This document shows, piece after piece, positions 34,480 through 62,856 of a stretch of 64,000 nt of DNA. The notes under the pieces are model-generated. The model was not told the DNA's origin. It was given only the letters and a program-made list of their open reading frames with translations, and made no database searches. The stretch lies in IMG/VR virus record IMGVR_UViG_3300035698_022762, positions 16,389-80,388 of that record; one strand, 5' to 3'. Each line of letters starts with the position of its first letter. The stretch's first letter is position 1. The position numbers and the translations under genes are program-made. The stretch is from a virus.

Positions 34480-36306
34480 ATGAAAAGAAAACTAGTTAAC
34501 TTCGAAATCTTCGAAGAAATGCAAAAAAATTCGCTCACTGCAGCCGAAATGGAGCTTCAGGAAGCCAGTCCAATAATTGCTGCTGCAACAGGAGCAGACG
34601 AATTGGAATTAGTTAGTTTTGGACAAGATAATGTCATCTATGAAAATCTAGATGGTACATATGTTCAAGCTAACTATGAAATTAAAAATGGAAAAATCTT
34701 CCTAGAAAATATTTCCCAATTGGTTGTGGATGAGGAAAGTGAAGTTACTCATAGAAAAGAAAAAATTTCCGAAATGGTTGATGCCATATTGGATAGCAAG
34801 AGCGAGAAAGCTAGCTCTATTTTCTCTGAAATCGCCTTCAAAGTAACTAGCTCTAAACCCAAGAGCGGCGACAAGAAAAGAAAAAGTTCTAAACGTGGAA
34901 AAACTATTGGTGGGTCTTCTGCTAGAAAAAGCTGGATCACTCGTAGAAAGAACAAAAAGAAGTTCAGCACTGATAATCCCGGTGTTAAAGCACAAATAGA
35001 CAGAGTGGCAGATCGTGAAAAAAGAAAACTTGGTAGAAAACCACGTACTACTAAAGGCACTCAACATATTAGAACTTACACAAGATTCGGTAAGAATATG
35101 AAAGAATGGACCATGATGGTAGAAAACGTATTTGATTACGTTGACTACAAAACTTATGGTCCTGTGCTTAAAGAGTCTGTAGTTAGTAGAGATGAAGATG
35201 GCAACGTAGTTGCACTTCAAATTCCTACAATGAAATTAAGAAATGAAGCTAAATTACTTAGCTTTGATTGGAAAACTCCTGACACCAAAGTTACTGTGCT
35301 TAGAAATGGCGCAAAAATGATTGGTGAAAGCGAAAACTTCTGCAAGGCAGTAGCTGAACTAAAAAGACACAACGCTCTTTCAGATAGTAACGCACTAGAA
35401 GAAACTCTAGGAGATATAGTTTCCAAATGGTCAGACATAATTTACTTGACCGAAAATGAATTGTCTAAAATGATTAAGAAATCTTTGGATACCATTGGTA
35501 CCAAAAACTACGACGATCAAACTTGTCAGTTTATGGCCGAAGGTATTTTAAGAACTGCACATGAAATATACACAGAAAAAGTCGCTGCCATTATAACTAT
35601 GGCTGGACAAACTATTAGTGAAGAATCAGAAGATCAATATGCTGATTTCAGAAAAGTTGCTGATGAATTGTTTAGTAACCTAGACGAAAGCAACATGACT
35701 GAAATGCAAGTCTATGTCGATCTTTATAATGCTCTAAGAGAAGTGTATCAAGGTGCAGATAGTGATGCACTATTGGATGAAGCAGAAATGCATCTTTCCG
35801 AACTAGCAGCAATTATTAATAAAGAAATTGCACCTTCTCTAGATGTGGCAGCAGATGCTGCTGATTTCTTGGCAGATGTCATCGAAGAAACTAATCTCAA
35901 TACTAAAGATTGGCAAGTTTCCAATAGCACGCACACATCCATTAATGGTGATCACCCTGCTATGAAAGAAAAAGCTAATTCGTCATACACCCCTTCCAGA
36001 GACTTCTCTGGTGACTACAACGATCCTGCCCCTGTAAGTGACGGAGATTGGCGTATAGGCAAAGGTAGTGATGATGCAGAAGAAATGAGAGGAAGATCAC
36101 ACGGAAACATAGGCGGAAATGACACCTATCCATCATTAAACAACCCATACGTGCCAAAACCATATGGTGATTACACTATGAAGAATGAAAAAGGTGTTGA
36201 TAAAGACAATGATCCGAATGGACAATGGGGCAGTGGCGATACGTGGCCAAACTTGAAAAACCCATATGTTCCACAAGCTGTGACTCCCCAACCTGTAACC
36301 GAGTAA
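34480..36306 (+). CDS. Putative prohead core protein
   Basis: 608 aa between portal and protease; acidic helical body, K/R-rich insert, C-terminal DT(Y/W)PxLxNPYVP repeat pair. Confidence 0.6.
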   Translation: MKRKLVNFEIFEEMQKNSLTAAEMELQEASPIIAAATGADELELVSFGQDNVIYENLDGTYVQANYEIKNGKIFLENISQLVVDEESEVTHRKEKISEMVDAILDSKSEKASSIFSEIAFKVTSSKPKSGDKKRKSSKRGKTIGGSSARKSWITRRKNKKKFSTDNPGVKAQIDRVADREKRKLGRKPRTTKGTQHIRTYTRFGKNMKEWTMMVENVFDYVDYKTYGPVLKESVVSRDEDGNVVALQIPTMKLRNEAKLLSFDWKTPDTKVTVLRNGAKMIGESENFCKAVAELKRHNALSDSNALEETLGDIVSKWSDIIYLTENELSKMIKKSLDTIGTKNYDDQTCQFMAEGILRTAHEIYTEKVAAIITMAGQTISEESEDQYADFRKVADELFSNLDESNMTEMQVYVDLYNALREVYQGADSDALLDEAEMHLSELAAIINKEIAPSLDVAADAADFLADVIEETNLNTKDWQVSNSTHTSINGDHPAMKEKANSSYTPSRDFSGDYNDPAPVSDGDWRIGKGSDDAEEMRGRSHGNIGGNDTYPSLNNPYVPKPYGDYTMKNEKGVDKDNDPNGQWGSGDTWPNLKNPYVPQAVTPQPVTE

Positions 36307-48379: not shown

Positions 48380-48941
48380 AATTGAATTTGTACAATTTTC
48401 CAAAAAACTTATTAAAGAAATCAACTCTTGTTACGACATGCATAAATTTGTCATGTCTGCTTTTCCTGATATGATGAAAACTAAAATTTTATTCAATGTG
48501 AATAAAAAAGGAATAATCGTACAATCAGAAATAAAGCCAGATTGGGAAAAAGCTAGAAATTATAGAGATTATTTTGTTAGTTCTACAATTGAAGAAATGG
48601 AATTGAATTTTGAGAACGATCAAGTCTTACAATTTTCTTTATTGGCCAATCCGACAAAAAGAGAACAATCAGGCAAAAGAAGATTTATTAGAACTGAAAA
48701 CGAGTTATCTGAATGGTTCGTTCGCAAATCCAATCTAGGGGGGTTTGCCCTTTTAGAATTGTCCATAAGCCCTACTAAGAAGAACATTTCAAAGAAAAAA
48801 GGCAACGAAATAACGATTGGCAGTGTGGTTTTCAATGGAAAACTAAAAGTCAAATCGGTGGAAGAATTTTCAAAAACAATTGTAGAAGGTATAGGAACAG
48901 CCAAATCGTTTGGTTTTGGGTTGCTAATGGTAAAATCATAA
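48366..48941 (+). CDS. cas6e: Cas6e (Cse3/CasE) pre-crRNA endoribonuclease
   Basis: YDMH, VQS..PDW, ANPTK and C-terminal GIGTAKSFGFGLL glycine loop. Confidence 0.93.
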   Translation: MYRSKIEFVQFSKKLIKEINSCYDMHKFVMSAFPDMMKTKILFNVNKKGIIVQSEIKPDWEKARNYRDYFVSSTIEEMELNFENDQVLQFSLLANPTKREQSGKRRFIRTENELSEWFVRKSNLGGFALLELSISPTKKNISKKKGNEITIGSVVFNGKLKVKSVEEFSKTIVEGIGTAKSFGFGLLMVKS

Positions 48942-48944
48942 TGG

Positions 48945-49811
48945 ATGAGAAACATGAAAAACCTCCATCAAATATCCAGAGCAGAAGATAGATCACCATT
49001 TCTATTCGTTGAAAAGTCTAGGGTATACGTAGACGGTAACAATGTTAGAATCGTAAACAAAGAATATAACATATCAGTTAATCCCAATTCAATAAGTGGT
49101 TTGTTGTTAGGACTGGGAACATCCATAACGCATTCTGCTGTGAAAACTCTTACAGAGTACCACGTCACAATTCAATGGATCGCTAGTGATATGCTGCATA
49201 CATATGCACATACATTCGATTCAAAACAACGCACTAAAAACCTTTTAAAACAAGCGGCGTTAATGGCAAACGACAACACAAGAATGTTGGTTGTCAGGAA
49301 AATGTACAAATTGAGGTTTGAAGAAGACGTTTTAGAAGATTCTTTATTTTCCATTCGTGGGAAAGAAGGTGCTAGAGTAAGAAAAGCATACGAAAACATA
49401 GCTAAAGAAAAAGGGATAGAATGGAACGGAAGACATTATGTCCCAAACCATCCTGAAAAATCTGATCTCCCTAATCGATTATTATCTTTGGCTAATTCTT
49501 ATTTGTATGGATTGTGCTTGTCGGTTATAATTCAATTAGGTTATTCCCCTTCTATTGGGTTTATCCATTCTGGATTTGCCTTATCTTTTGTATATGATGT
49601 AAGCGATTTTTATAAAACAAAATTTATCATTCCTATTGCTTTTGAAATAGCATCTTTGGAAAACGCAATTCACGATCTAAAATTAAAAAATGATATTGTG
49701 AAAATGTTTGAAAAAGAAAAGTTTACAGAAAAAATAGAAAACGACATAAAACATGTTATGAATGTAGAATACAAACAATCAATAGAAAAAAATGGACTTT
49801 GGACGCCATGA
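48945..49811 (+). CDS. cas1: Cas1 (type I-E)
   Basis: LLLGLGTSITHSA, RGKEGARVR, GFIH and FVYDVSDFYK; catalytic E/H/D present. Confidence 0.95.
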   Translation: MRNMKNLHQISRAEDRSPFLFVEKSRVYVDGNNVRIVNKEYNISVNPNSISGLLLGLGTSITHSAVKTLTEYHVTIQWIASDMLHTYAHTFDSKQRTKNLLKQAALMANDNTRMLVVRKMYKLRFEEDVLEDSLFSIRGKEGARVRKAYENIAKEKGIEWNGRHYVPNHPEKSDLPNRLLSLANSYLYGLCLSVIIQLGYSPSIGFIHSGFALSFVYDVSDFYKTKFIIPIAFEIASLENAIHDLKLKNDIVKMFEKEKFTEKIENDIKHVMNVEYKQSIEKNGLWTP

Positions 49812-50068
49812 TGATTTTAATTGTTAATAAAATAAGTGAAAAATTTCATGGAGAATTGAAAAATACTTTATTAGAAATAAAACACAATGTATTTGTAGGC
49901 AGTCCATCTAAAAGAATAAGAGAAATTATGTGGAGTAAGGTTGTAAAAAATGCTGAAAGTGCTGTAATGGCCAATTCAGACAAAAAACATATAAACAAAT
50001 ATGAAATAAATATACATGGAGACACAAATATCGTAGAAATAAATGGAAGATATTTTTCAAAATTATAA
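49808..50068 (+). CDS. cas2: Cas2 (type I-E)
   Basis: GEL..LLEIK.NVFVG..SKRIRE.MW; ATGA overlap with cas1. Confidence 0.9.
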   Translation: MMILIVNKISEKFHGELKNTLLEIKHNVFVGSPSKRIREIMWSKVVKNAESAVMANSDKKHINKYEINIHGDTNIVEINGRYFSKL

Positions 50069-50190
50069 AGTAAAAATGCTCAATCGACAAATACAGAAGC
50101 AATGTGTCGTTAAGTCTCTTTATTGTTGGTACTTACATCAAAAGCACAATATATTGTGCTTTTGATGTACTCATAGTACAATATGATGGT
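50069..50190 (+). promoter_or_regulatory. CRISPR leader with 36-bp perfect palindrome and putative promoter
   Basis: Palindrome at 50134-50169; TTGTGC(50154)-17-TACAAT(50177). Confidence 0.75.
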
Positions 50191-51101
50191 TTGTTCCCCA
50201 TGTAATGGGGGTGTTCCCACAGACAAGATAACGAAGGTAATATTGCCTATTTGTTCCCCATGTAATGGGGGTGTTCCTATGGAAAGCCGATGCTGTCTTT
50301 CAAGTACTTGTTGTTCCCCATGTAATGGGGGTGTTCCTAGAGATAAAGAGGAAGGCATCTATACATCCAATTGTTCCCCATGTAATGGGGGTGTTCCTTT
50401 GCGGATGAGTACGTTAATCGCCCGTTTGATTGTTCCCCATGTAATGGGGGTGTTCCTCTGGTAAAAAAATGCCTCAGCATGGTTAGCTGTTGTTCCCCAT
50501 GTAATGGGGGTGTTCCTTGCCGAAATGGACAATGTAAAGAAGTGGGCGATTGTTCCCCATGTAATGGGGGTGTTCCTTGCACCTTGCTTGATACCATTGC
50601 CAGAAGTTATTGTTCCCCATGTAATGGGGGTGTTCCTTAAGCATGAGCTAAAAGATTTAGTCAGGGGCATTGTTCCCCATGTAATGGGGGTGTTCCTATC
50701 TATCCGCCCGAAACCCTTGAAAATGTCATTTGTTCCCCATGTAATGGGGGTGTTCCCATCCACGTCGTACCCCAAGGCAACAAGTGGGCTTGTTCCCCAT
50801 GTAATGGGGGTGTTCCCATCCACGTCGTACCCCAAGGCAACAAGTGGGCTTGTTCCCCATGTAATGGGGGTGTTCCTTATTCCAGCAGCATAAGCCGATT
50901 TCCAGATATTGTTCCCCATGTAATGGGGGTGTTCCTAGCTGTATGGCAGCCCTATCGCACCTATCATGTTGTTCCCCATGTAATGGGGGTGTTCCTCAAT
51001 CGCATCCGCCGCATTTATTCCCCATGTAATGGGGGTGTTCCTAATCTTATGCCAGTATTTCCCATTGTCATCGATTATTCCCCATGTAATGGGGGTACTG
51101 A
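50191..51101 (+). CRISPR. Type I-E CRISPR array, 16 repeats and 15 spacers
   Basis: Repeat TTGTTCCCCATGTAATGGGGGTGTTCC(Y) with 59-60 nt period and a CCCCAT/ATGGGG hairpin; the last two repeats are variant and the last is degenerate, so the leader is on the cas2 side. Confidence 0.98.
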
Positions 51102-51201
51102 TCTAGAAGGTTTCTTCAAAGAAAAATAATTTCAGAAGTCTCTCTTTCATAACAGTTCCAAGTTCCATACAAGAATGAACATCATTGGCTTTGCAATCTA
51201 A

Positions 51202-51230
51202 TTTACAAGATTAAAAACTCATGGTATAAT
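51202..51230 (+). promoter_or_regulatory. Sigma70 extended -10 promoter for the small-gene cluster
   Basis: TTTACA-17-TATAAT with TGn. Confidence 0.65.
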
Positions 51231-51273
51231 GGCAGACAATCTTAGGAAGATTGTTCAGAGCAAAAAGGGAATC

Positions 51274-52894: not shown

Positions 52895-53138
52895 AATGGC
52901 AATTAGAGTAACTAAAGGACATAGAGAACGAGAAGAAAAAAGAATTCCATTGGAAACCAATCGTAATTTATATGACGAGTTAATGGAATTGTCTATGGGG
53001 GATGATTATGATGGGTGTTTCACTCCTATCGGGAGAATTACTCATGGATTGCTAAAGGAAGAATTTGAAAAGAGATTGGCAGATTGGCTAGATGATGGAG
53101 GTTTGTCACATTTAAACGATAGTTGCACAGGCACATAA
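52884..53138 (+). CDS. Hypothetical protein
   Basis: Small ORF; GGAG before MAIRV suggests a slightly later start. Confidence 0.5.
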   Translation: MENKMAIRVTKGHREREEKRIPLETNRNLYDELMELSMGDDYDGCFTPIGRITHGLLKEEFEKRLADWLDDGGLSHLNDSCTGT

Positions 53139-53161
53139 TTATATTTAAAAGGAGATTCATC

Positions 53162-53344
53162 ATGAATACATCTAGACAAATGTGGGATGCTTTTCAAAAG
53201 TCCATATCATATGATAATTCAATGGGTAGTTACAATCATTACATTTGCGAATATTTTTTGAAAAAGATGAAAGATTCTGGATGTGAAATTCCAAACAAAA
53301 AAGAGTTCATGGAAGAAATGAAAAGCATTATTGAGGGAGAGTAA
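53162..53344 (+). CDS. Hypothetical protein
   Basis: AAGGAG RBS before MNTSRQ. Confidence 0.5.
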   Translation: MNTSRQMWDAFQKSISYDNSMGSYNHYICEYFLKKMKDSGCEIPNKKEFMEEMKSIIEGE

Positions 53345-53382
53345 TTCTTTTTTGAAGAACTCAAACTTACTTTCCCTATGTC

Positions 53383-53790
53383 TTAAAAAGGCATGATTTT
53401 GCCCAAAACTTCTTTTTCCCAATTATAATCTTTATATTTTTTCCCCCAATCATCAGCTTCTTGACAAAGAGTTTTAATTTCTTTATCAATTTTCTTATAT
53501 GCTTGCGATTGTTCAATCTTTTGAATAATATAATCTTGAAGGTATTCGTTATTCCAACATGGGTAGCCTTCCCCCAAAACAAGTTCCATCAGTTTATTGC
53601 GTGTCAAACTACCTTCAATAATTTTATAACTGTGGACATGAGGCGTGTCGTCGCTTTCCCATCCAATTAAAGACAAAATAGTACGTTTACCAAGTGGGAC
53701 TTCTATTGCTCTATTTTTTACAATAATGTTTTCTACTTGGCGAAAATGACGAGCGTGTTGCTTTTTAGGAGGCAAGTTGAGTTTAGTCAT
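53383..53790 (-). CDS. Hypothetical protein
   Basis: 135-aa ORF. Confidence 0.55.
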   Translation of the reverse strand: MTKLNLPPKKQHARHFRQVENIIVKNRAIEVPLGKRTILSLIGWESDDTPHVHSYKIIEGSLTRNKLMELVLGEGYPCWNNEYLQDYIIQKIEQSQAYKKIDKEIKTLCQEADDWGKKYKDYNWEKEVLGKIMPF

Positions 53791-53909
53791 AGTGGCTGCT
53801 ATCTGAAATACTTGTGGGTTTATTCGTTTAGTTGCACCATCTCATGATGATGTAACAAGTGTTTGCGTTTTCTCAAACTTTTAAATCACGCATCGAAATT
53901 AATTTTTCT

Positions 53910-54478
53910 CTAAACTATTGTTAAATGAAAATGATAGACTGAATCATAACTATCTGATTCAAAAGTTTCTTCTTTACAAGTAACGCTGCAATTATGATAA
54001 GACAACGTTTCTAATGTTTCACCTAGTGCATTCATTTTAGCAAATTTAATATTTGAAAGAGAGGCTATATGCTGTGCAGTCTCTTTTACTTTTAACATAT
54101 CATCTTTTGAATCACACATTAAGTTACAAAGTTCAAAAACAACCTCTTGGGAATTATGTTTGATCATTTTCACGAATGAAATATCAGATATCACCCATCT
54201 AGTTTTGCCTTTAAATATTGCATTTTCTTTGAGGTTTGCCGAAAGCGGTTCTGTTATTATTTGATCTATTTTACCATATAAACGTTCTAAATAATCTTGT
54301 CTACTATATGCATCTTTTTCTTCTAATATGTATTCGTGTTGTGTAGAATTAGCTAAATCGTGATAAAAATCATCATTAACTTCTATTGGATGAACTCTAA
54401 AATCAGTTAAGTCGCCTTCTTTTAGATTGACTATTCCAGTGCCAATTACGCTATTATTGTCTTTTATATGAACTAATA
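53910..54478 (-). pseudogene. 3' part of a phage gene interrupted by the IS607-type element
   Basis: The frame of the 94-aa ORF stays open, with no start codon, for ~95 more codons up to the element boundary (..LVHIKDNNSVIGTGIVNLKEGD..). Confidence 0.75.
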
Positions 54479-54640
54479 CCGTTCTAAAAAACTTACAAAA
54501 ATCTACAAGTAGCAGATTTCACGTTTTCTTCTTGCTTCACAGAAGACAGTTTCGTAATAATAATAGTCTTATTACCAGAGCTTTCCTCTCCACAAGCATT
54601 TATATTCTCTGTCGAACTGACAGCGAGATTCTCTAAATTC
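54460..54640 (-). ncRNA. Predicted TnpB omega/reRNA (scaffold overlapping the tnpB 3' end plus flank-derived guide)
   Basis: The tnpB stop lies 12 nt from the element end; GCTTGTGGAG...GAAGCAAGAA motifs typical of tnpB 3' ends; boundaries approximate. Confidence 0.55.
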
Positions 54641-55719
54641 TTAGCAGCATTTAAATCTCGATCATGAACAGCACCACAAGCACATGTCCACTCTCGATCT
54701 GCTAATGTTAACTCGTCATTCAAACAACCACAAAAACGACATAACTTAGAACTTGGGAAAAATCTATCAGCAACTTGGATATCACAGCCATATAGTTTCC
54801 CTTTATATTCTAATTGCCTTCTGAACTCATACAAACCAACATCTGAAATTGCTTGAGCTAATTTATGGTTTTTCATCATTCCAGAAACATTTAAATCTTC
54901 AATTACAATAATTGACTTGTTTTTCGTCAACTCAGTTGTAATTTTATGTAGTGTATCTTTACGAATGTTTCCAATCTTATAGTGCAGTTCCGATACCTTT
55001 CTTACAGCTTTTTTTCTATTTTGAGAACCTTTTACTTTCCTACTCATTGAACGTTGTAGCATCTTCAACTTTTTCAATCTAGTTCTTAATGCTTTAGGGT
55101 TCTGATATTCTTTTCCATCACTACAAACAGCTAATGTCTTTATACCCAAATCAATTCCAACTACATTTTTCTTCTTAGTTTTCGGTTCTTTGATTTCTTC
55201 TTCAACTTGGATAGACACAAACCATTTTCCTGCTTTTTCGCTAACTGTCGAAGACAGTATTTTCGCATCATTTGGAAAATATCCGTTTTCCTTGAGTCTT
55301 AGCTTTCCTAGTCTTGGAAGTTGAATAGTATTTTCTGTGACTTTTATTGTTCCAGTAAATCTACTTGAGCCAATGCTTTTATGTTTATTCTTTCGTCTTG
55401 GATATCCAACTTTTCCTTTGAACTTGCCTTTTTTCTTGTCTTTACACTTTCTAAAAAAGTTCTTAAAGGCATTTTCTAAATTTCTAAGTGACTCTTGAGG
55501 GCTACATTTTGATACATCTTTATACCAGATAGCATTATCTCTTTTCCAGACGTTCCACTCTTTATGAAGTTGGATAGCGTTTGGTTTAGAGACTTTGCTT
55601 TCGATACGGCTTAGTGCCCAATTCCAGACATAGCGTGCTGTCCCTGCGTGTTGCAGTAATGCAGAACGTTGTTTGTTGGAAACTTTTAATTCAGTTTTAT
55701 AACCCCGAATCACTTTCAT
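54493..55719 (-). CDS. tnpB: RNA-guided endonuclease TnpB
   Basis: HTH N-terminus; RuvC-I GIDLG, RuvC-II IEDL, Zn finger CRFC..CAC and RuvC-III DRDLNAA all intact. Confidence 0.96.
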   Translation of the reverse strand: MKVIRGYKTELKVSNKQRSALLQHAGTARYVWNWALSRIESKVSKPNAIQLHKEWNVWKRDNAIWYKDVSKCSPQESLRNLENAFKNFFRKCKDKKKGKFKGKVGYPRRKNKHKSIGSSRFTGTIKVTENTIQLPRLGKLRLKENGYFPNDAKILSSTVSEKAGKWFVSIQVEEEIKEPKTKKKNVVGIDLGIKTLAVCSDGKEYQNPKALRTRLKKLKMLQRSMSRKVKGSQNRKKAVRKVSELHYKIGNIRKDTLHKITTELTKNKSIIVIEDLNVSGMMKNHKLAQAISDVGLYEFRRQLEYKGKLYGCDIQVADRFFPSSKLCRFCGCLNDELTLADREWTCACGAVHDRDLNAAKNLENLAVSSTENINACGEESSGNKTIIITKLSSVKQEENVKSATCRFL

Positions 55720-55860
55720 TTAATTTCCTCTGCGTGTTTCCCACGCTTTCTTAGCAGCCGCCTTTCGTCGTCTGGTTTTCCATGCTTTATGTGCTGACTC
55801 GCTTCTTTGATTGGCTCTGCGAGTATCCCACGCCTTTAATGCTGCTTCTCTAGTTGCCAT
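55720..55860 (-). CDS. 46-aa basic peptide with three KAWxTRR repeats (not in the ORF track)
   Basis: MATREAALKAWDTRRANQRSESAHKAWKTRRRKAAAKKAWETRRGN; AAGGAG RBS; its TAA abuts the tnpB ATG. Confidence 0.75.
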   Translation of the reverse strand: MATREAALKAWDTRRANQRSESAHKAWKTRRRKAAAKKAWETRRGN

Positions 55861-58800
55861 GTTAATCTCCTTTGTAAAGAAGGGTTATTTTGTACAAAAC
55901 AACCCAATGATCTTTCTTTTTTATCCTCACTTCTTGCATTTGGTTTTCTTCTGTTCTTATCTACAAAACTACACAATTCATTAAGCCTATTTGTGTATCG
56001 TTGTTTTTTATCGAATCGATCAAATAAATTTTCACAACCTTGTTCTTTAATAATGTCACATAAATCATTATCCCATATATATTTTTCTTTTCTACTTTTC
56101 ATGTGAGCAATAAAAATTCCTAAAGTTTTTTCTAATTCATCTTTACTATTTTGTTTTGGAGTTTTTTTATGCTTATTAACAAAACTGCACGCTTCATAAC
56201 ATAATTCAATATGTCTTTGTTTAGTCCTGTCTTTATAATCATTAAACACATCTGGACTCCCAATATCTTTAACCATTTCATCTAATAAAGAATTCCACTT
56301 TTTATCTTGTTTTAATCCTTGTTTACATTGCCTAAAATCTAAAATGTATTTTGCTAACGATCTCTCTTTCATTCCACTACCATTTTGTTGTGGAACTTTT
56401 TCATAAGTTTTTATATATTCACATATCTCTCTGCACTTATCTATATCTATTTCGTCTTTGTCAATTAAATTAAACAAATTTGGATGGTTGTCTTGGCAAG
56501 CTATTTTATCTAATCCAAAACTTCTACCAAGCTTTAATTGATTCTGTTTTCTCATTTTGGCATTATATAAAAAACTAGCTAGTTTTTTCTCTTTTTTGTC
56601 TGGGCTTGTACCTAAAGGCATTCTGCCATTTTTATCTATAAAACTACATAATTCATGACATTTTTGAATAGATAGCTCTTCTTTCTTATCAAATACACCA
56701 AAATGACCACGACCTTCACATATTTTATCGTGTGCAAAACTCCAAATATTTTTACCTTGGCCTCTTTTATCTTTTTTTCTATCAATAACCCAATATGCCA
56801 AACTTTTTTCATGATTATTTTCACTATTTACGCTTGGTGTCCTGTCATTTACGTCCATAAAATCACAAAGTTCATGACATCTTTTAACAGCCACTTCTTC
56901 ATTGTCAACTGAATTGAATAAATTGGGGTATCCTCTATCATTAGCTATCTTATCTAAAATAGAATAAAATATACCCCATCCCCCACCTCCTTTAGCTGAT
57001 TTTATTTTGCTAATCCAATCATATAATGATTTTTCTTCTTTGCCTTTAAGATAACTAGGCAACCTGTCATTTGCGTCTATAAAATCACATACCTCATGGC
57101 ATCGTTTTACAGCCATTTCTTCGCTGCTGACATAAAGATCACGAATTGTTTCCCAATCTTTTTGAGAATACACACCAGACCACATATTGCAATGCTCAAG
57201 TATTTTATCAAATCCCATTTCTCGCAAAAAATTAGCGTTAATGTCTAACTCACGAAGTTCTTTAGACATAATCCGAAATATCAAAGTCTTTACAGCCATA
57301 ACAATTTCAATATATTTTGGATTACTATTAGTAACGCCATACTTGGGCAATATAAATTCAATAATATTTTTTAATTTTTCTTTAGTGAGATTTTGCGTCT
57401 TTAAAAGAATCATAGATAATTCCTTTTTTAAACTTTGATAATTATCCCCAAAAACTTCTGCTAAAGATATTTTGGAAAGGCTATAAGATTCCCCCTCTTT
57501 TTCGGAAGATGGGTCTGGAATAATTGGCAAGAAGATAGGACTAAACATCTCATTCAATTGCATAGATAGCAACAATGCATTTGTTCTATCAGATAAGAAT
57601 TCTCTCTCAGTCACATCCTTACTTGGAGAAACAAATTTCTTAACATAATAAACAACTTTTACCGAAGTTTTGCCGCCAACGATCTGTCCATCCTCTTCTA
57701 TTACAAAACGCCTGAAAGCTCGTCCTAGAGTCTGTACGGCAAGCGTAATGCTACCCTCAATAGAAGCATTATGTATTCTAGAACAAGGACACCAGTCTGT
57801 TCCTTCTCGTCCTAACATACATGACACTACAATATCGAATTTAGACTTATTTATCTCTCCAGTTTCAGAGTCAGAATCAATTTCTTTAGGATGTTTTGGC
57901 TCATTCAGTAATAATTTCTTATTTTGATTTTGCGTACTTTGTGTTACTAGATCAAGAATGTTTAATTTAGGGAAAGATTCCCGTAATTGCAAAAACAATT
58001 CTTTTACTTCATTGTCGTCTCGCCATTTATTTCCAGTAGAAGGAACAAATATAAAATGCTTTTCTTTTGGCTCAGCTTTAATATTAGATATTATTTGCTT
58101 GATTGGGTCTGTATCATATGCTTCAAACCTCATTTCGAAGTCTTTTATGCCTAAAGTCTTCCAGTGATCGCACCAATCAACGCTATATACTTTGAATTTT
58201 TTTAATATTTTCTTCGTTAATATAATGCCTCTGTCTCCCCTGTATGGAGTCGCAGTAGTAAAATGCAACCTAACAGTACGAGATTTGCTATCAAGTATAT
58301 ATTTACAAATTTGTCCTAAATTATTAGCCTCTTCCTCTAAAACTATTTTTTGAATATCAGATAAACTATCATCCTCTACATCAAATACGCCTTTAACGTG
58401 ATGAGCTTCATCGACTCTCAAAGATAAATTTTTAATTGCTAATTTCTTCTCTGCGTCTGTAAAAGCATTCCATACAATACTTAATGCTTGATGTGAACAA
58501 ACTGCATTTAATCCTGTTATTATTTCATTCCCGTATGATTGCGACAATTTTTCTGCACTATTAAGAAGCCATTTTCTTAAATTGTTTAGTATATGTTGGC
58601 TTTTTTCATCGCAGAAATTATGATGAGTTTGTATAGTCCAATTATACTTAGCTCCGTCAACCATAATTTGGATATAATCTCCCATATTGTCACCAATAAA
58701 ACCTTTACCAATATGGGATTGAGGCACAATAAATAATTGTTTTTGTGTATAATTATTTTCTACAACTTCATGAATAGCCAATGAAACTTGAAGTGTTGAT

Positions 58801-58988
58801 TTCCCCCAACCACAAGGAGCGACCAAAAGAGTTTGCTTGCTGCTTTTAAGTCTATTATAAACATCAGGTTGATTATTCCTTAATTCTTTATATTCTTTCT
58901 TTGGCCCATCCATATAGCAAGGTTTGTTATATTCTGGATTTGAACCTTTGCTTCCTAATGCACCAATAAATGTATCGTACTTCGCCAT
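55836..58988 (-). CDS. SF2 (DEAH) helicase/ATPase with six C-terminal helicase-associated (HA)-like repeats
   Basis: APCGWGKS, VDEAHH, TAT, GREGTDW and QTLGRAFR motifs; repeats CHE(V/L)C.F..N.R.P....EK.L..W. Confidence 0.85.
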   Translation of the reverse strand: MAKYDTFIGALGSKGSNPEYNKPCYMDGPKKEYKELRNNQPDVYNRLKSSKQTLLVAPCGWGKSTLQVSLAIHEVVENNYTQKQLFIVPQSHIGKGFIGDNMGDYIQIMVDGAKYNWTIQTHHNFCDEKSQHILNNLRKWLLNSAEKLSQSYGNEIITGLNAVCSHQALSIVWNAFTDAEKKLAIKNLSLRVDEAHHVKGVFDVEDDSLSDIQKIVLEEEANNLGQICKYILDSKSRTVRLHFTTATPYRGDRGIILTKKILKKFKVYSVDWCDHWKTLGIKDFEMRFEAYDTDPIKQIISNIKAEPKEKHFIFVPSTGNKWRDDNEVKELFLQLRESFPKLNILDLVTQSTQNQNKKLLLNEPKHPKEIDSDSETGEINKSKFDIVVSCMLGREGTDWCPCSRIHNASIEGSITLAVQTLGRAFRRFVIEEDGQIVGGKTSVKVVYYVKKFVSPSKDVTEREFLSDRTNALLLSMQLNEMFSPIFLPIIPDPSSEKEGESYSLSKISLAEVFGDNYQSLKKELSMILLKTQNLTKEKLKNIIEFILPKYGVTNSNPKYIEIVMAVKTLIFRIMSKELRELDINANFLREMGFDKILEHCNMWSGVYSQKDWETIRDLYVSSEEMAVKRCHEVCDFIDANDRLPSYLKGKEEKSLYDWISKIKSAKGGGGWGIFYSILDKIANDRGYPNLFNSVDNEEVAVKRCHELCDFMDVNDRTPSVNSENNHEKSLAYWVIDRKKDKRGQGKNIWSFAHDKICEGRGHFGVFDKKEELSIQKCHELCSFIDKNGRMPLGTSPDKKEKKLASFLYNAKMRKQNQLKLGRSFGLDKIACQDNHPNLFNLIDKDEIDIDKCREICEYIKTYEKVPQQNGSGMKERSLAKYILDFRQCKQGLKQDKKWNSLLDEMVKDIGSPDVFNDYKDRTKQRHIELCYEACSFVNKHKKTPKQNSKDELEKTLGIFIAHMKSRKEKYIWDNDLCDIIKEQGCENLFDRFDKKQRYTNRLNELCSFVDKNRRKPNARSEDKKERSLGCFVQNNPSLQRRLTWQLEKQH

Positions 58989-58991
58989 CAA

Positions 58992-59588
58992 CTAGCCTCT
59001 CTTATGAAAGATATATGTTCTAAGAAATGTTTTTCCAGTAGCACTATAGTCATAATTTGGTATTTCATAATCCCATTTGTCAAATTCAAATGGTGGAAGT
59101 TTTTTAGGCATATTTTTAATAATCTTGTCTTCTAAAAACTTTTTGCTACTTCTAGGATCATTAAGCAATGCATTGACAAACAAAACTGTTCCAACAGGAC
59201 ACATCATCATTGTTGGTACAACCATATTCATAATGATTCTATTATCTGCAAAACTTGTTGAATCTAAATAAACGAAAGAAGGTTTAAAACTTACACTTTC
59301 AATAACATCAACCCACTCGCCTGCATACCAACTAGCCTCTGAGTGCCATACTCTATTTTTTACAATTATATCTTCATCACGATCAACACCATGAAACTGA
59401 CTTTTCTTAATCAAACCGCTTTGAATAAGTTGGCATATTTCTGACCCATCATCTACAGGCTGCTCATTACACAGACACCAATAAGATCGATCTGGCGGTA
59501 TCTTGTCACCTACAATACTCTTGTATGCTTTAATATTTTCAGCACGAGCTTTAGACTTATACTCAGAATGTGTGTAATCTGGTTGCAT
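58992..59588 (-). CDS. Class I SAM-dependent methyltransferase-like protein
   Basis: FHGVDRD (motif II), WYAGEW (III) and FVYLD (IV); atypical motif I. Confidence 0.5.
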   Translation of the reverse strand: MQPDYTHSEYKSKARAENIKAYKSIVGDKIPPDRSYWCLCNEQPVDDGSEICQLIQSGLIKKSQFHGVDRDEDIIVKNRVWHSEASWYAGEWVDVIESVSFKPSFVYLDSTSFADNRIIMNMVVPTMMMCPVGTVLFVNALLNDPRSSKKFLEDKIIKNMPKKLPPFEFDKWDYEIPNYDYSATGKTFLRTYIFHKRG

Positions 59589-59592
59589 ACTA

Positions 59593-60231
59593 TTATCCTG
59601 CTGTCTGTTTTTCTTTTTCTAACTTTCTTTGACGACGATTTTCTGCGGAACGTTTCCCATAGATTTTAGCTGAAAACGATGACATCAAAGAAATCATATC
59701 ATCAACTAACTCTTGCTCATACGTCTTTGATCTTTTATCGCCCATATGCTCAATTACAACGCCATGAGAGTTAAAATACGATTCATAAACGCCAAAATTG
59801 AACCTCGCCAATCTGTCTTTATGCTCAACTATAACTTTGGTTATTTGTTTAGTTTCAACTAAAGTAAATAATTTTCTCAATTTAGAGCGTTTATCGTTCA
59901 TTCCAGAACCAACTTCTGATAAAGAATGAACTACATTGTACTTTTTCTTGAGACAAAAATCCAATACTCGTGATTTTTGTCTATCTAAATCACCTTTTTT
60001 CTTTTGGTCTGATGATGAAACTCTACAATATAGACAAATTTTATCTTTTACAGGAGCATCATCATGTTTAATTCCTTGAAGGTCTTCGATATCTCTAAGA
60101 CGATATCGACGATGACCGCCAGCGGTTTTAACAGCTTCAAACTTTCCTGATTCATCCCAATAACGAAGGGTATTTTGACTCACACCAAGCATTTCAGACG
60201 CTTTTTGTATATTTAACAGCCGTTCACTCAT
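59593..60231 (-). CDS. tnpA: IS607-family transposase TnpA (MerR-type HTH plus serine recombinase)
   Basis: ASEMLGVSQNTLRYWD..GGHRRY HTH; YCRVSS catalytic motif; EHKDRLARF; ELVDDM. Confidence 0.96.
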   Translation of the reverse strand: MSERLLNIQKASEMLGVSQNTLRYWDESGKFEAVKTAGGHRRYRLRDIEDLQGIKHDDAPVKDKICLYCRVSSSDQKKKGDLDRQKSRVLDFCLKKKYNVVHSLSEVGSGMNDKRSKLRKLFTLVETKQITKVIVEHKDRLARFNFGVYESYFNSHGVVIEHMGDKRSKTYEQELVDDMISLMSSFSAKIYGKRSAENRRQRKLEKEKQTAG

Positions 60232-60409
60232 TATCTCCTAATCCCATTTGTTTAAATATTTCCCACCATTGGTCGTATATTTTCTGGAACTCCTCAATAG
60301 TTGGCACTTTCTCAAGGGGTTCGTTATGCTGATACGCCGATCCGTCACTTAGTTCGAAATCGGTTTTTGTGACCTTGACCACTTTTAAACGATGTTTTGG
60401 AAAAGTCAT
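60224..60409 (-). CDS. Small hypothetical protein, first gene inside the element
   Basis: AAGGAG RBS; overlaps the tnpA start. Confidence 0.6.
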   Translation of the reverse strand: MTFPKHRLKVVKVTKTDFELSDGSAYQHNEPLEKVPTIEEFQKIYDQWWEIFKQMGLGDNE

Positions 60410-60502
60410 AATTATCATGCTCCTTATATATTCAGCATGTTAACAAAAATACCTTCATTTTTTGTAAAAATTTGTAAATTTTGTTAAATTTTTATGGAAC
60501 GG

Positions 60503-60608
60503 TCGTCAACCCTCGATATATCCAAGAACCGCCGAAACAATAGGATAGAAGTTTGCATTTTGGCAGGGTTGTTTCATTTAAAATAGAAAATAATTTGCGT
60601 TTCTTCAT
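60503..60608 (-). pseudogene. 5' part of the gene interrupted by the IS607-type element
   Basis: The ATG at 60608 or 60577 joins in frame with 53910-54478, depending on the junction model. Confidence 0.65.
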
Positions 60609-60651
60609 GTGTCAATTCTCTGTAATGATTTTAATTGTTCGACAGTGGTAT

Positions 60652-60679
60652 ATTATACCAGATAGCTCTAATCAGACAA
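60652..60679 (-). promoter_or_regulatory. Sigma70-type promoter of the interrupted gene, now facing into the element
   Basis: TTGTCT-16-TATAAT with TGn. Confidence 0.55.
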
Positions 60680-60755
60680 CTGTTTTAAATTTCACTAGCA
60701 AACGTTTTGATGCAAGTTTTTCATTAAACAATAAAAAATAAACCATATATAAAAT

Positions 60756-61589
60756 ATGAGTTTTAAACAATGGTTATTAAACGAAGTCCCTTTATCTGAT
60801 ACGCAGTTCATAGGTAAATGGGGAGATAAAGACCCCAAATATGGTTATAAAAAAAGCGATATAGGAATTCTTACGCAACCAAATATAAAAGAAAAATTGA
60901 AAAAGTCTTGGTCTAATTCCAAATATGATTTTGATCTATATTTTGTCAAAAGTTTCAAAGCAATGCAACATGTAGAATTAGGTGAAAGAAGTAAAGAATG
61001 GGTTAAGGAAAATTTAGATTTAGATTTAACTCCCAAAGAAGATCATATTACAATTATATTTACTCAAAATAAAGCAACCCCGCACATGCCAATGACCCCT
61101 TGGATAATAGCGCATAGAATAAGTCATGCTGTAAGACAAAATCGAATATTCGAAGAATACATTACAAGAGAATTGAAAAAAGATTTTTCGTTGTTGTTAA
61201 AAGACATATATGGAATTGAAGACAATTCTAGAAATCACGACTATCCCTTGAGAAACAAGTACAATAAAGACATGAAAGCCCTTGCACAAGAAATAGGGTC
61301 GTTTAGATCAGCACGTAAAAAAGAAATAAGAAACTTTTATGAATTCGCTCATGAAATGATCGCTCAATGGATTATAACAGGGAAAGTTGAGTTCAACCCT
61401 CCACCAGCTTCTTTTATCAGACAAGCAAGATTTGCTTGGGGTAATCCAGCCCACGATTACGCAAAGAAAAATATATCTGGTGAAGATTTCGAAGACATTA
61501 AATATTATGTTTCAAATATGGCTGAAAAATACGAAATGAACATTTTAAATGCGTTTTCTGGATTTGTTAACAAAATATTTGTTATGTGA
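60756..61589 (+). CDS. Protein with FxxWLxxE N-terminus and HxxxH motif (putative internal head protein)
   Basis: MSFKQWLLNE; WIIAHRISHA; CATATATAAAAT directly before the ATG. Confidence 0.6.
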   Translation: MSFKQWLLNEVPLSDTQFIGKWGDKDPKYGYKKSDIGILTQPNIKEKLKKSWSNSKYDFDLYFVKSFKAMQHVELGERSKEWVKENLDLDLTPKEDHITIIFTQNKATPHMPMTPWIIAHRISHAVRQNRIFEEYITRELKKDFSLLLKDIYGIEDNSRNHDYPLRNKYNKDMKALAQEIGSFRSARKKEIRNFYEFAHEMIAQWIITGKVEFNPPPASFIRQARFAWGNPAHDYAKKNISGEDFEDIKYYVSNMAEKYEMNILNAFSGFVNKIFVM

Positions 61590-61646
61590 AATGTTGAACC
61601 TTTACCAATAATCTAATTATGCTACAATGGTAATGGACTTTCAATT

Positions 61647-61832
61647 ATGAACATAAAAACCAATTACAAAAAACCAAAACTAGATTCTTTTAATTGTTCA
61701 GAAGAAGAAAAGAAAATAGCAGAAAAGCATACTAGAACAACTTGTTTAGATGGGATTCATGAAGCATGGTTCCAAGCATTAACAGATCAAAAACGCTTAA
61801 TGAGAAGTATCTTTCACGCAAAATTCCAATGA
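61647..61832 (+). CDS. Hypothetical protein
   Basis: 61-aa ORF with TGnTACAAT and GGA upstream. Confidence 0.4.
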   Translation: MNIKTNYKKPKLDSFNCSEEEKKIAEKHTRTTCLDGIHEAWFQALTDQKRLMRSIFHAKFQ

Positions 61833-61938
61833 GAATAAAATTCGCTGACTACCATTCTTATTGGAATTTCACTGAAAATAGTTCATTAAAGAATGATTTT
61901 ATGAAAAAACCCACAAGATCAGAAGTGGTTTTTAGATA

Positions 61939-62856
61939 TCAACTATAGAAATCTATTTTTTCCATTATAGACCTGCAATTTTCTATCATTTTATTTGGAT
62001 ATTTTTCATATTTGTCTATTTCTAAAGGCCAAAGATCAATGGTTCTTCTTTGTCCCATTATCAAAGCGTTTTCATAAAAGACAACTGATTTACCGTAATT
62101 TTTAGTATAGTAATATGTATCACCTAAAACACACCAAAATTCAGCCATTAACGGGTTGGCTGACAGACTGGACAGAGTTTTATTAATACTTTCTTGAGGT
62201 TTGTTTAAAAAATATAAATATATCATTGCAGAATAATAAGTAGTCATGACAGAAGCCATGCCTTTTTTTCTTCTAAATAGAAAATGTTCAGCCACGTTGA
62301 TATATTCTTTATATTTTTTTTGACCTAAAAGTATGCAAGATTTATAATACAAAACATCAGCATTATGACTTTCTTTCAACTCCCATTTATTTATTTTTTC
62401 AATGTCATCATCCCAATTTATTTTATTTTGAGATGAGAGTACGACATCTAATACTATTTTGGAAGAATGATCTATTGTTTCGAAAATAGGGTTTATAAAC
62501 TTTTCTTTTTTTGTAAAAATTCTTATTTCTTTTGTCAATACATTATTTGAAATTATTTGCACATTAGACACTTGTTCTTTTATGTTATCATGCCCATAAA
62601 CTATTGACTCCCAAGGATTAACACTGAAAACGAAATCTGTTTTAGCCAACAAGTTCAATTCGTTTTTCATGTCACTAATTGATTCAGAATTGTCAATATG
62701 TTCTACTTTGCATTGATATTTTTTAAACACATCTTGTTGATCGTATATTGATGCACCTATTAAAATAGGTGCATTTAGTATCGACAAAGATTCCAAACAC
62801 TTTTCTAAAAAAGGTTCAAACTTTGTTATCAGGATGCAAATTGTTAAATTTTTCAT
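61939..62856 (-). CDS. GT2-like plus TPR protein, degenerate DxD
   Basis: LTICILI..FLEKCLESL, KNELN..AKTDFVFSVNPWE (usually DADE); TPR helices (AEFWCVLGDTYY). Confidence 0.6.
   Translation of the reverse strand: MKNLTICILITKFEPFLEKCLESLSILNAPILIGASIYDQQDVFKKYQCKVEHIDNSESISDMKNELNLLAKTDFVFSVNPWESIVYGHDNIKEQVSNVQIISNNVLTKEIRIFTKKEKFINPIFETIDHSSKIVLDVVLSSQNKINWDDDIEKINKWELKESHNADVLYYKSCILLGQKKYKEYINVAEHFLFRRKKGMASVMTTYYSAMIYLYFLNKPQESINKTLSSLSANPLMAEFWCVLGDTYYYTKNYGKSVVFYENALIMGQRRTIDLWPLEIDKYEKYPNKMIENCRSIMEKIDFYS

What the first reader, a model, noticed from the sequence alone, without database searches (positions are those of the whole stretch)
54479..60512. IS607-type TnpA/TnpB transposon carrying a methyltransferase-helicase-peptide cargo between its two core genes
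Seen: six tightly coupled minus-strand genes with gaps of 4 nt or less, or overlaps: small ORF, tnpA, 198-aa SAM-MTase-like gene, 1051-aa SF2 helicase with six HA-like repeats, 46-aa basic peptide, and tnpB with intact RuvC D-E-D. All lie inside one pair of element ends. Established: IS607 elements are normally ~2 kb with adjacent tnpA-tnpB, and TnpB is an RNA-guided nuclease. Inference: this is a 6-kb self-mobile cargo transposon in a phage. The MTase+helicase pair is either an R-M-like or superinfection-defence module spread by TnpB homing, or a set of TnpB partners (compare Cas3 or DinG assisting RNA-guided effectors). I do not know of this arrangement being described.
Basis: partly seen in the sequence, partly recalled or inferred. 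Interest (0 to 1): 0.88.

Follow-up and report, generated by a model that had tools for sequence, protein, structure and literature searches.

The report
Split IS607 transposon around phage module
A huge salt-lake phage carries an IS607-type transposon whose two core genes lie 3.9 kb apart around a methyltransferase-like/helicase gene pair; that pair is an ordinary conserved module of large phages, and nothing here shows that the 6-kb segment has moved as one piece.

Summary
Six tightly packed minus-strand genes (orf64, tnpA, a 198-aa gene here called p198, a 1051-aa helicase, a 46-aa gene here called pep46, tnpB) lie at the stated coordinates. Comparison with related phage IS607 copies shows one left-end core (60512-60498) and one right-end core (54491-54479) in the 9 kb scanned. 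They bracket all six genes (about 6.03 kb; relatives are about 2.2 kb).

- p198 (class-I methyltransferase fold) and the SF2 helicase form a conserved module. It occurs in 12 other large-phage records, never with tnpA or tnpB within 8-10 kb.
- The right arm (pep46-tnpB-right end, 1.4 kb) is exchanged separately. It is 88% identical in a second phage found in the same salt-lake samples, in a 99-kb record with no tnpA.
- No second copy, empty site or excision joint of the 6-kb segment was found.
- Nothing links the module to TnpB function or to known defence systems.
- Rare cargo, including a helicase, in serine-recombinase TnpB transposons has already been published (PMC10691335).

Best reading: a structurally complete composite IS607 with a phage module in the tnpA-tnpB slot. 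Mobility as a unit is inferred, not shown. Other first-stage notes of this scan cover the same stretch.

The parts
60652..60679 (-). Best sigma-70-like promoter match of the region (TTGTCT-16-TATAAT with TG), in the left flank outside the element
   Evidence: It is a consensus match only.
60510..60514 (-). GAGGG at the left junction: a TAM-like motif and the (G)GG crossover site
   Evidence: Sequence. GAGGG/AGGAG TAMs and the GG crossover are taken from PMC11061315 and PMC6188088. Relatives also have (A/G)GGG here.
60440..60512 (-). Left end: GGG, a GACCGTT core (60504-60498) and three direct TTTACAAA-type repeats about 10 bp apart (60488-60461)
   Evidence: L042, L007 (two copies) and L033 have the same architecture. 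The inverted similarity to the right end was reached by 1 of 500 shuffles.
60224..60418 (-). orf64, a small conserved protein that precedes tnpA in this IS607 clade
   Evidence: tblastn and alignment A5. No Pfam or PHROG match.
59593..60231 (-). tnpA, an IS607-type serine transposase (N-terminal MerR-like HTH plus resolvase catalytic domain)
58992..59588 (-). p198, a protein with a class-I SAM-methyltransferase fold; first gene of the conserved large-phage module
55836..58991 (-). SF2 helicase (core about residues 1-620) with five and a half HA-like repeats; the last 12 codons lie inside the shared pep46-tnpB block
55882..55905 (-). Terminator-like hairpin (10-bp stem plus T-rich tail) in the last codons of the helicase, 9 nt before the block boundary
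54476..55873 (-). 1398-bp block (pep46-tnpB-right end) shared without gaps at 87.7% identity with a second huge-phage record (L009)
55720..55860 (-). pep46, a basic peptide with three KAWxTRR repeats; member of a family of 42-64-aa peptides
   Evidence: It has 1 mismatch in 141 nt against L009.
54493..55719 (-). tnpB, an RNA-guided nuclease homologue whose RuvC D/E/D and Zn ribbon are present
   Evidence: Differences from L009 fall mostly at third codon positions (104 of 168).
54529..54596 (-). RAGATH-18-like element (candidate guide-RNA scaffold) overlapping the 3' end of tnpB
   Evidence: 28.1 bits, below the 44.9 gathering score, E 0.0046 for the 701 nt searched. The fold has z -2.2.
54479..54491 (-). 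Right-end terminus: T-run followed by GAACGG
   Evidence: L009, L042, L007b, L033, L041 and L049 have the same terminus.
54459..54478 (-). Right flank that would supply the TnpB guide
   Evidence: Inferred from the published TnpB model. Not tested.
   Evidence: codon-usage score 0.445 against -0.7 in the other frames. It has no homologues.

Best explanation
The locus is a structurally complete but atypical IS607-family element of about 6.03 kb (left end at 60512/60510, right end at 54479) in a huge phage. Its order is left end-orf64-tnpA, then [p198-helicase], then pep46-tnpB-guide RNA-right end.

TnpA is a serine transposase that acts on the two ends and crosses over at GG. Everything between the ends could therefore in principle be excised as a circle and re-inserted. 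TnpB, guided by RNA read from the right flank, would cut an element-free site that carries GAGGG.

The interposed p198-helicase pair is not transposon machinery. It is a copy of a module conserved in large phages, sitting in the tnpA-tnpB slot that related phage IS607 copies also use for extra genes.

The right arm (pep46-tnpB-right end) is also exchanged by itself between phages found in the same samples.

Shown: the gene content, the cognate ends, the conservation of the module elsewhere, and the separate spread of the right arm. Inferred: that the 6 kb moves as a unit, how the module got in, and what it does.
For: Ends:
- There is exactly one left-end core and one right-end core in 9 kb, and they bracket the six genes.
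- Canonical relatives of 2.2 kb have the same end architecture.
- The inverted similarity between the two ends was reached by 1 of 500 shuffles.
- GAGGG at the left junction equals a published IS607 TnpB TAM, and GG termini are as published.

Genes and slot:
- The order orf64-tnpA...tnpB matches the clade.
- In L041 a DUF4238 gene, and in L047 two small ORFs, sit between tnpA and tnpB.
- Rare helicase cargo in serine-recombinase TnpB transposons is published.
- tnpB is under purifying selection, and a RAGATH-18-like RNA is present.

Flanks and assembly:
- A strongly coding frame without a start codon abuts the right end. The canonical GG junction with the left flank gives it an ATG.
- The junctions are bridged by contigs of other runs from the same salt-lake metagenomes.
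Against: - Only one copy is known. No empty site, second site or excision joint was found.
- The module occurs in 12 other large-phage records, never with tnpA or tnpB. It could therefore be resident rather than carried.
- The pep46-tnpB-right end block has a sharp left boundary at 55873 in two contexts, and a hybrid allele exists. This fits an independently arriving right arm.
- That block sits next to a diverged module remnant in the second phage too.
- All three frames of the left flank are open with an ATG, so the restoration of an interrupted gene is not discriminating.
Confidence: 0.55

Rival explanations
1. There is no single transposon. The p198-helicase module is resident in this phage, and two IS607-derived fragments landed separately on either side of it: a tnpB-less left arm (left end-orf64-tnpA) upstream, and a tnpA-less right arm (pep46-tnpB-right end) in or just after the 3' end of the helicase. 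Their canonical order would be a coincidence, or the result of deletions in two full copies.
For: - The right arm occurs alone, with the same left boundary, in a second phage record that has no tnpA in 99 kb.
- A contig of run X5 joins the window's helicase flank to the other phage's allele of the block.
- The module is otherwise never inside IS607.
- tnpA loci without tnpB, and tnpB loci without tnpA, are common among the relatives.
- Removing the 1398-bp block puts the helicase frame in frame with the start-less downstream frame.
- The sixth helicase repeat stops half-way, exactly at the block boundary.
Against: - No right-end core follows tnpA, and only 4 nt separate it from p198. No left-end core precedes pep46. 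Neither arm is a complete element, so neither should transpose alone.
- The in-frame result has a 1-in-3 chance. It fails for the canonical GG crossover (1390 bp) and for a boundary placed after AGGAG (1391 bp).
- The downstream frame does not complete the sixth repeat. It scores -20.7 against +10 to +13 for true repeats, and 22% of shuffles do as well. The repeat profile stops at the junction.
- A terminator-like hairpin lies just before the boundary. This suggests that the helicase gene naturally ends there.
Confidence: 0.3
2. One reading: the methyltransferase-like gene, the helicase and the peptide are working partners of TnpB (as Cas3 or DinG assist RNA-guided effectors), or a restriction-modification-like or superinfection-defence module spread by TnpB homing.
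For: - The genes are packed tightly on one strand.
- pep46 abuts tnpB and travels with it in both contexts, identical in amino-acid sequence.
- A diverged methyltransferase-like gene and a repeat protein also lie upstream of the block in the second phage.
Against: - All 12 other records that hold the module lack tnpB within 8-10 kb.
- About 45 related tnpB or tnpA loci lack the module.
- No PADLOC model matches any of these genes.
- No nuclease domain was found in the helicase.
- p198 lacks a recognisable glycine-rich SAM loop.
- The KAWETRR motif is widespread in unrelated phage proteins that are not near tnpB.
Confidence: 0.05
3. The arrangement is an assembly chimera of two phages that share the 1.4-kb repeat.
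For: One metagenome contig (L054) joins the window's helicase to the other phage's allele of the block and to that phage's right flank. Mis-joins across the shared block therefore do occur.
Against: In runs X3-X6, short contigs identical to the window bridge every junction of the locus, including right end/right flank (54174-54534) and left end/left flank (60185-60570).
Confidence: 0.02

Closest known systems
IS607 family insertion sequences (IS607, IS1535; serine-transposase TnpA plus TnpB)
   Same: - TnpA has an N-terminal MerR-like HTH and a resolvase catalytic domain.
- TnpB lies downstream on the same strand.
- The termini are GG and there is no target duplication.
- Subterminal direct repeats lie about 20-50 bp inside the left end.
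- The left flank is G-rich.
   Different: - It is 6.03 kb instead of about 1.7-2.5 kb.
- tnpA and tnpB are 3.9 kb apart.
- There is an extra small gene before tnpA (shared with its phage clade) and a peptide gene before tnpB.
- Only one copy is known.
IS607 TnpB guided by RAGATH-18-derived RNA (ISFba1 type, PMC11061315)
   Same: - TnpB is about 400 aa with the RuvC D/E/D.
- A RAGATH-18-like element overlaps the 3' end of the gene.
- GAGGG lies at the left junction and AGGAG at the inner block boundary; both are published TAMs.
   Different: - The RNA match is below Rfam's gathering score.
- Neither the TAM nor cleavage has been tested.
Rare cargo-carrying serine-recombinase TnpB transposons (branch Ser-3 in PMC10691335)
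   Same: There are extra genes inside a TnpA(Ser)/TnpB locus, and the paper names an ATP-dependent RNA helicase among such cargo.
   Different: - I could not check whether it is the same helicase family or the same slot.
- Here the cargo is a two-gene module that is conserved in large phages.
- Here the host is a huge phage.
Composite transposons, and homing-endonuclease islands of T-even phages (co-conversion of flanking genes)
   Same: - Resident genes are flanked by mobile-element parts and could be carried along.
- A nuclease-bearing cassette is exchanged between phages found together.
   Different: - The two arms here are the complementary halves of one IS, not two complete copies.
- The cassette has sharp boundaries and there is no homology in the flanks.

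Membership tests
IS607 family | Serine-recombinase TnpA with an N-terminal HTH | tested here: met
   Pfam MerR_1 (residues 7-56) and Resolvase (residues 66-205). phrog_6620 transposase, 2e-51.
IS607 family | TnpB (OrfB_IS605 with a RuvC fold and a Zn ribbon) downstream of tnpA on the same strand | tested here: met
   D/E/D and CxxC...CxC were read.
IS607 family | tnpA and tnpB adjacent; element about 1.7-2.5 kb | tested here: not met
   There is a 3.9-kb gap and the element is 6.03 kb between its ends. Relatives are about 2.2 kb.
IS607 family | GG at both termini, no terminal inverted repeats in the strict sense, and no target-site duplication | tested here: met
   GGG at 60512-60510 and GG at 54480-54479. 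The flanks differ.
IS607 family | Subterminal repeats that bind TnpA | tested here: inconclusive
   The left end has three TTTACAAA-type repeats about 10 bp apart, and the right end has inverted copies. Binding was not tested.
IS607 family | Mobility: several copies, or an empty site | tested here: not met
   There is a single copy in the 80-kb record. No empty-site or excision joint appeared in four runs of contigs. No second context of the 6 kb was found. The record is only about 11% of the genome, so this test is weak.
RAGATH-18 / IS607 reRNA | Match to Rfam RF03064 at the gathering score | tested here: not met
   28.1 bits against 44.9. There was no hit at the gathering threshold. The position and strand are as expected.
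Class-I SAM-dependent methyltransferase (p198) | Rossmann-like seven-strand fold | tested here: met
   AlphaFold pLDDT 88. The top Foldseek PDB hits are all methyltransferases, with E about 2e-7 and TM 0.52-0.62.
Class-I SAM-dependent methyltransferase (p198) | Glycine-rich SAM-binding loop (motif I) and catalytic motif | tested here: inconclusive
   There is no GxGxG after strand 1. The invariant residues are FHGVDRD and YLDxTxFAD. There is no Pfam match.
SF2 helicase | Motifs I, II, III and VI | tested here: met
   Invariant G61/G63/K64, D194/E195/H197, T246-A247-T248 and Q420/G423/R424/R427 in 30 homologues. ResIII match.
Known anti-phage defence systems (PADLOC) | Match to any model | tested here: not met
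   There were no matches for the helicase, p198, pep46 or orf64.

The most novel reading that the evidence does not exclude
The 6-kb segment is an active cargo-carrying IS607. TnpA moves it, and TnpB homing copies it, between huge phages infecting the same cell. It would thus act as a natural RNA-guided drive for a methyltransferase-helicase module. The 1.4-kb pep46-tnpB cassette would be a by-product, made by recombination at an internal GG.
Probability: 0.2. Interest if true: 0.75.

Novelty: new variant of a known kind. Interest (0 to 1): 0.42.

Why it matters
If the 6 kb moves as a unit, IS607/TnpB elements in huge phages could carry kilobase-sized phage modules, not only their own genes. 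TnpB homing could then spread those modules between co-infecting phages.

The spread of the pep46-tnpB cassette between two huge phages found in the same samples rests on stronger evidence. It is a concrete natural case for studying how tnpA-less TnpB units move.

The methyltransferase-fold/helicase/repeat-protein module is widespread in large phages and has no assigned function.

Tried and rejected
1. Helicase continuing into the downstream frame. Removing the 1398-bp block puts the helicase in frame with the start-less downstream frame, and a G and an F fall at the spacing seen in the repeats. I rejected this as support. A profile of the five full repeats stops at the junction, and the downstream residues score like shuffles. 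The frame argument fails for the canonical GG crossover.

2. Excision restoring an interrupted gene. All three frames of the left flank are open with an ATG, so any junction restores an ORF. The 60608 frame shows no codon-usage signal.

3. Relatives have different dinucleotides there at the left and right ends, whereas GGG upstream is conserved.

4. Group-I-intron/IStron or intein reading of the tnpB block. There is no intron match in Rfam, and the block contains stop codons.

5. Homologues of the downstream frame. There are none in 1.8 billion representative proteins.

6. Close relatives of the flanking 277-aa gene, to find an empty site. There are none.

7. Close relatives of the helicase or p198 in the viral contigs. 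There are none.

The genomic contexts of the protein hits, including the pep46-like peptides, could therefore not be read.

9. Runs X5 and X6 held only small shares of the stretch. No excision joint was seen in the contigs. Contigs cannot show rare joints.

10. The helicase core, as a single sequence and as a profile, has no relative among solved structures.
Full report
**Context.** The window is 64 kb of an 80-kb IMG/VR virus record that CheckV rates 11% complete. It encodes a large terminase, a T4-type portal with an intein, and Cas3 and Cse1 of a type I-E CRISPR system. It is therefore a fragment of a very large tailed phage. Near-identical sequence occurs in salt-lake metagenomes from several studies.

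**Observation.** The six minus-strand ORFs are at the stated coordinates, and their spacing is a 25-nt overlap to a 4-nt gap.
- tnpA is a serine recombinase with an N-terminal MerR-type HTH.
- tnpB has the three TnpB Pfam domains.
- The 1051-aa protein is an SF2 helicase, with motifs I, II, III and VI invariant across 30 homologues.
- Its tail holds five full HA-like repeats and one half repeat.
- The 198-aa protein has no Pfam match, but it models confidently as a class-I SAM-methyltransferase fold. It lacks a glycine-rich SAM loop.
- Contigs from other runs of the same salt-lake metagenomes bridge every junction.

**The ends.** Related phage-borne IS607 copies have the order orf64-tnpA-tnpB. 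They share an end architecture.
- The right end stops with a T-run and GAACGG.
- The left end starts with (G)GG, then a core AACNGTT after 5-9 nt, then three direct repeats about 10 bp apart.
- These canonical copies measure about 2.2 kb.

In window 53000-62000 there is exactly one left-end core (60512-60498, followed by three TTTACAAA-type repeats) and one right-end core (54491-54479). No right end follows tnpA, and no left end precedes pep46. The two ends show an imperfect inverted similarity that 1 of 500 shuffles reached. The left junction reads GAGGG. This is one of the two TAMs found for IS607 TnpBs, and IS607 recombines at GG. A RAGATH-18-like element overlaps the 3' end of tnpB, as expected for this TnpB class, but it scores below Rfam's threshold.

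**The genes between tnpA and tnpB.** The helicase core has more than 170 homologues of about 625 aa, many on contigs of 300-640 kb. p198 has few close homologues, and several share a longest-contig length with a helicase homologue.

In every locus fetched through p198 or through the helicase, both genes lie within 3 kb of each other. These are 13 loci from 12 records, all from 33- to 572-kb viral contigs. Proteins made of a related repeat usually lie beside them. None of these loci has tnpA, tnpB, orf64 or pep46 within 8-10 kb. Conversely, of about 45 loci fetched through tnpA or tnpB, only L009 has any part of the module, a distant p198 homologue.

The pair is therefore a conserved module of large phages. 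It is not IS607 equipment, and it is not a regular TnpB partner. It matches no PADLOC defence model, and its function remains unknown.

**The right arm travels alone.** A second huge-phage record (L009; 99 kb, 20% complete) shares one gap-free 1398-bp block with the window, at 87.7% identity. The block spans 55873-54476, that is pep46, tnpB and the right end. The two records share nothing else at the DNA level. That record has no tnpA and no helicase core.
- Differences in tnpB fall mainly at third codon positions (104 of 168).
- The pep46 stretch has only 1 mismatch in 141 nt. This could reflect a DNA-level constraint or a recent conversion tract.
- Contigs with the second phage's right flank appear in the same sequencing runs as the window phage, with the break exactly at 54476.
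- One contig of run X5 joins the window's helicase flank to the other phage's variants, 7 and 51 nt inside the block.
- One JGI contig joins the window's helicase (2164 nt, no mismatch) to the other phage's allele of the block.

The cassette is therefore exchanged between phages found together, at a fixed left boundary (AAAGGAG). That boundary contains a GG and the second published TAM, AGGAG.

In the second phage the cassette also lies just downstream of a diverged methyltransferase-like gene and a helicase-tail/repeat protein. I cannot explain this association.

**The flanks.** A frame of 187 codons with strong codon-usage signal abuts the right end and has no start codon for 93 codons. It is a 5'-truncated gene without homologues. 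Joining it to the left flank by the canonical GG crossover yields an ATG-initiated ORF, downstream of the best promoter match in the region. Every possible junction does the same, because all three flank frames are open. Joining it to the helicase by removing the 1398-bp block is in frame. The downstream residues do not complete the sixth repeat, and a terminator-like hairpin lies just before the boundary. The flanks are compatible with one 6-kb insertion into a phage gene, but they do not prove it.

**Precedent.** Two relatives carry extra genes exactly between tnpA and tnpB: a DUF4238 gene in L041, and two small ORFs in L047. A published survey notes rare cargo, including an ATP-dependent RNA helicase, in serine-recombinase TnpB transposons (PMC10691335).

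**Verdict.** The most likely reading (0.55) is a composite IS607 with intact cognate ends, an intact TnpA and TnpB, and a large-phage module in the tnpA-tnpB slot. It is mobilisable in principle, but no evidence shows that it has moved as a unit. The main rival (0.3) is that two incomplete IS607 arms flank a resident module. The proposal that the module assists TnpB, or acts as a defence system, has no support.

Noticed in passing
L049:6709-9582: In a 436-kb viral contig, an IS607 tnpA is split by a 321-aa LAGLIDADG_2 ORF (L049:7085-8050, Pfam 3e-16). This looks like an intein- or intron-like insertion inside a serine transposase gene.
   Followed up: no
L041:8648-9610 and L047:8624-8985: Related phage IS607 copies carry a DUF4238 gene (320 aa), or a 71-aa ORF plus a 48-aa Zn-ribbon ORF, exactly between tnpA and tnpB.
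   Followed up: partly
L007:7154-11747 (also L008): Two different IS607 copies (47-57% protein identity to the window's genes) lie in tandem, each with its own left-end core and its own orf64-tnpA-tnpB.
   Followed up: no
window 60224-60418 and alignment A5: orf64 belongs to a conserved family of small proteins (VVRVTKTEFEL..DG...P..F.LDE.PT.EEFQK.YD.W) that precedes tnpA in this IS607 clade. It has no match in Pfam or PHROGs.
   Followed up: partly
window 55720-55860; window 34921-34950; L065-L077: The motif AALKAWETRR occurs once at the N- or C-terminus of many unrelated phage proteins. Free-standing peptides of 42-64 aa with two or three copies exist (P0140-P0144). One of them shares its longest-contig length (338,107 bp) with helicase homologue P0046.
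   Followed up: partly
L009:7518-7562: About 330 bp upstream of the shared block in the second phage, a 45-nt stretch is 82% identical to the block's left edge. It covers the stop of the methyltransferase-like gene and the start of a 96-aa membrane-like ORF. It may be the remnant of an older copy.
   Followed up: no
window 56273-57357 and 60469: Run X6 holds a 90-95% relative with a 1083-bp skip inside the helicase repeat region, that is a variant in repeat number. One contig of run X3 leaves the window at 60469, inside the left end, and continues into unknown GC-rich sequence.
   Followed up: no
window 41875-51100: Cas3 (HD plus helicase) and Cse1 are confirmed by Pfam. A GC-rich stretch at 50250-51250 is where another first-stage note places the CRISPR array. 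This would be a type I-E system in a huge phage.
   Followed up: partly
window 31436-33985: The T4-type portal gene carries an intein splicing domain (Pfam Intein_splicing, 7.5e-12).
   Followed up: no
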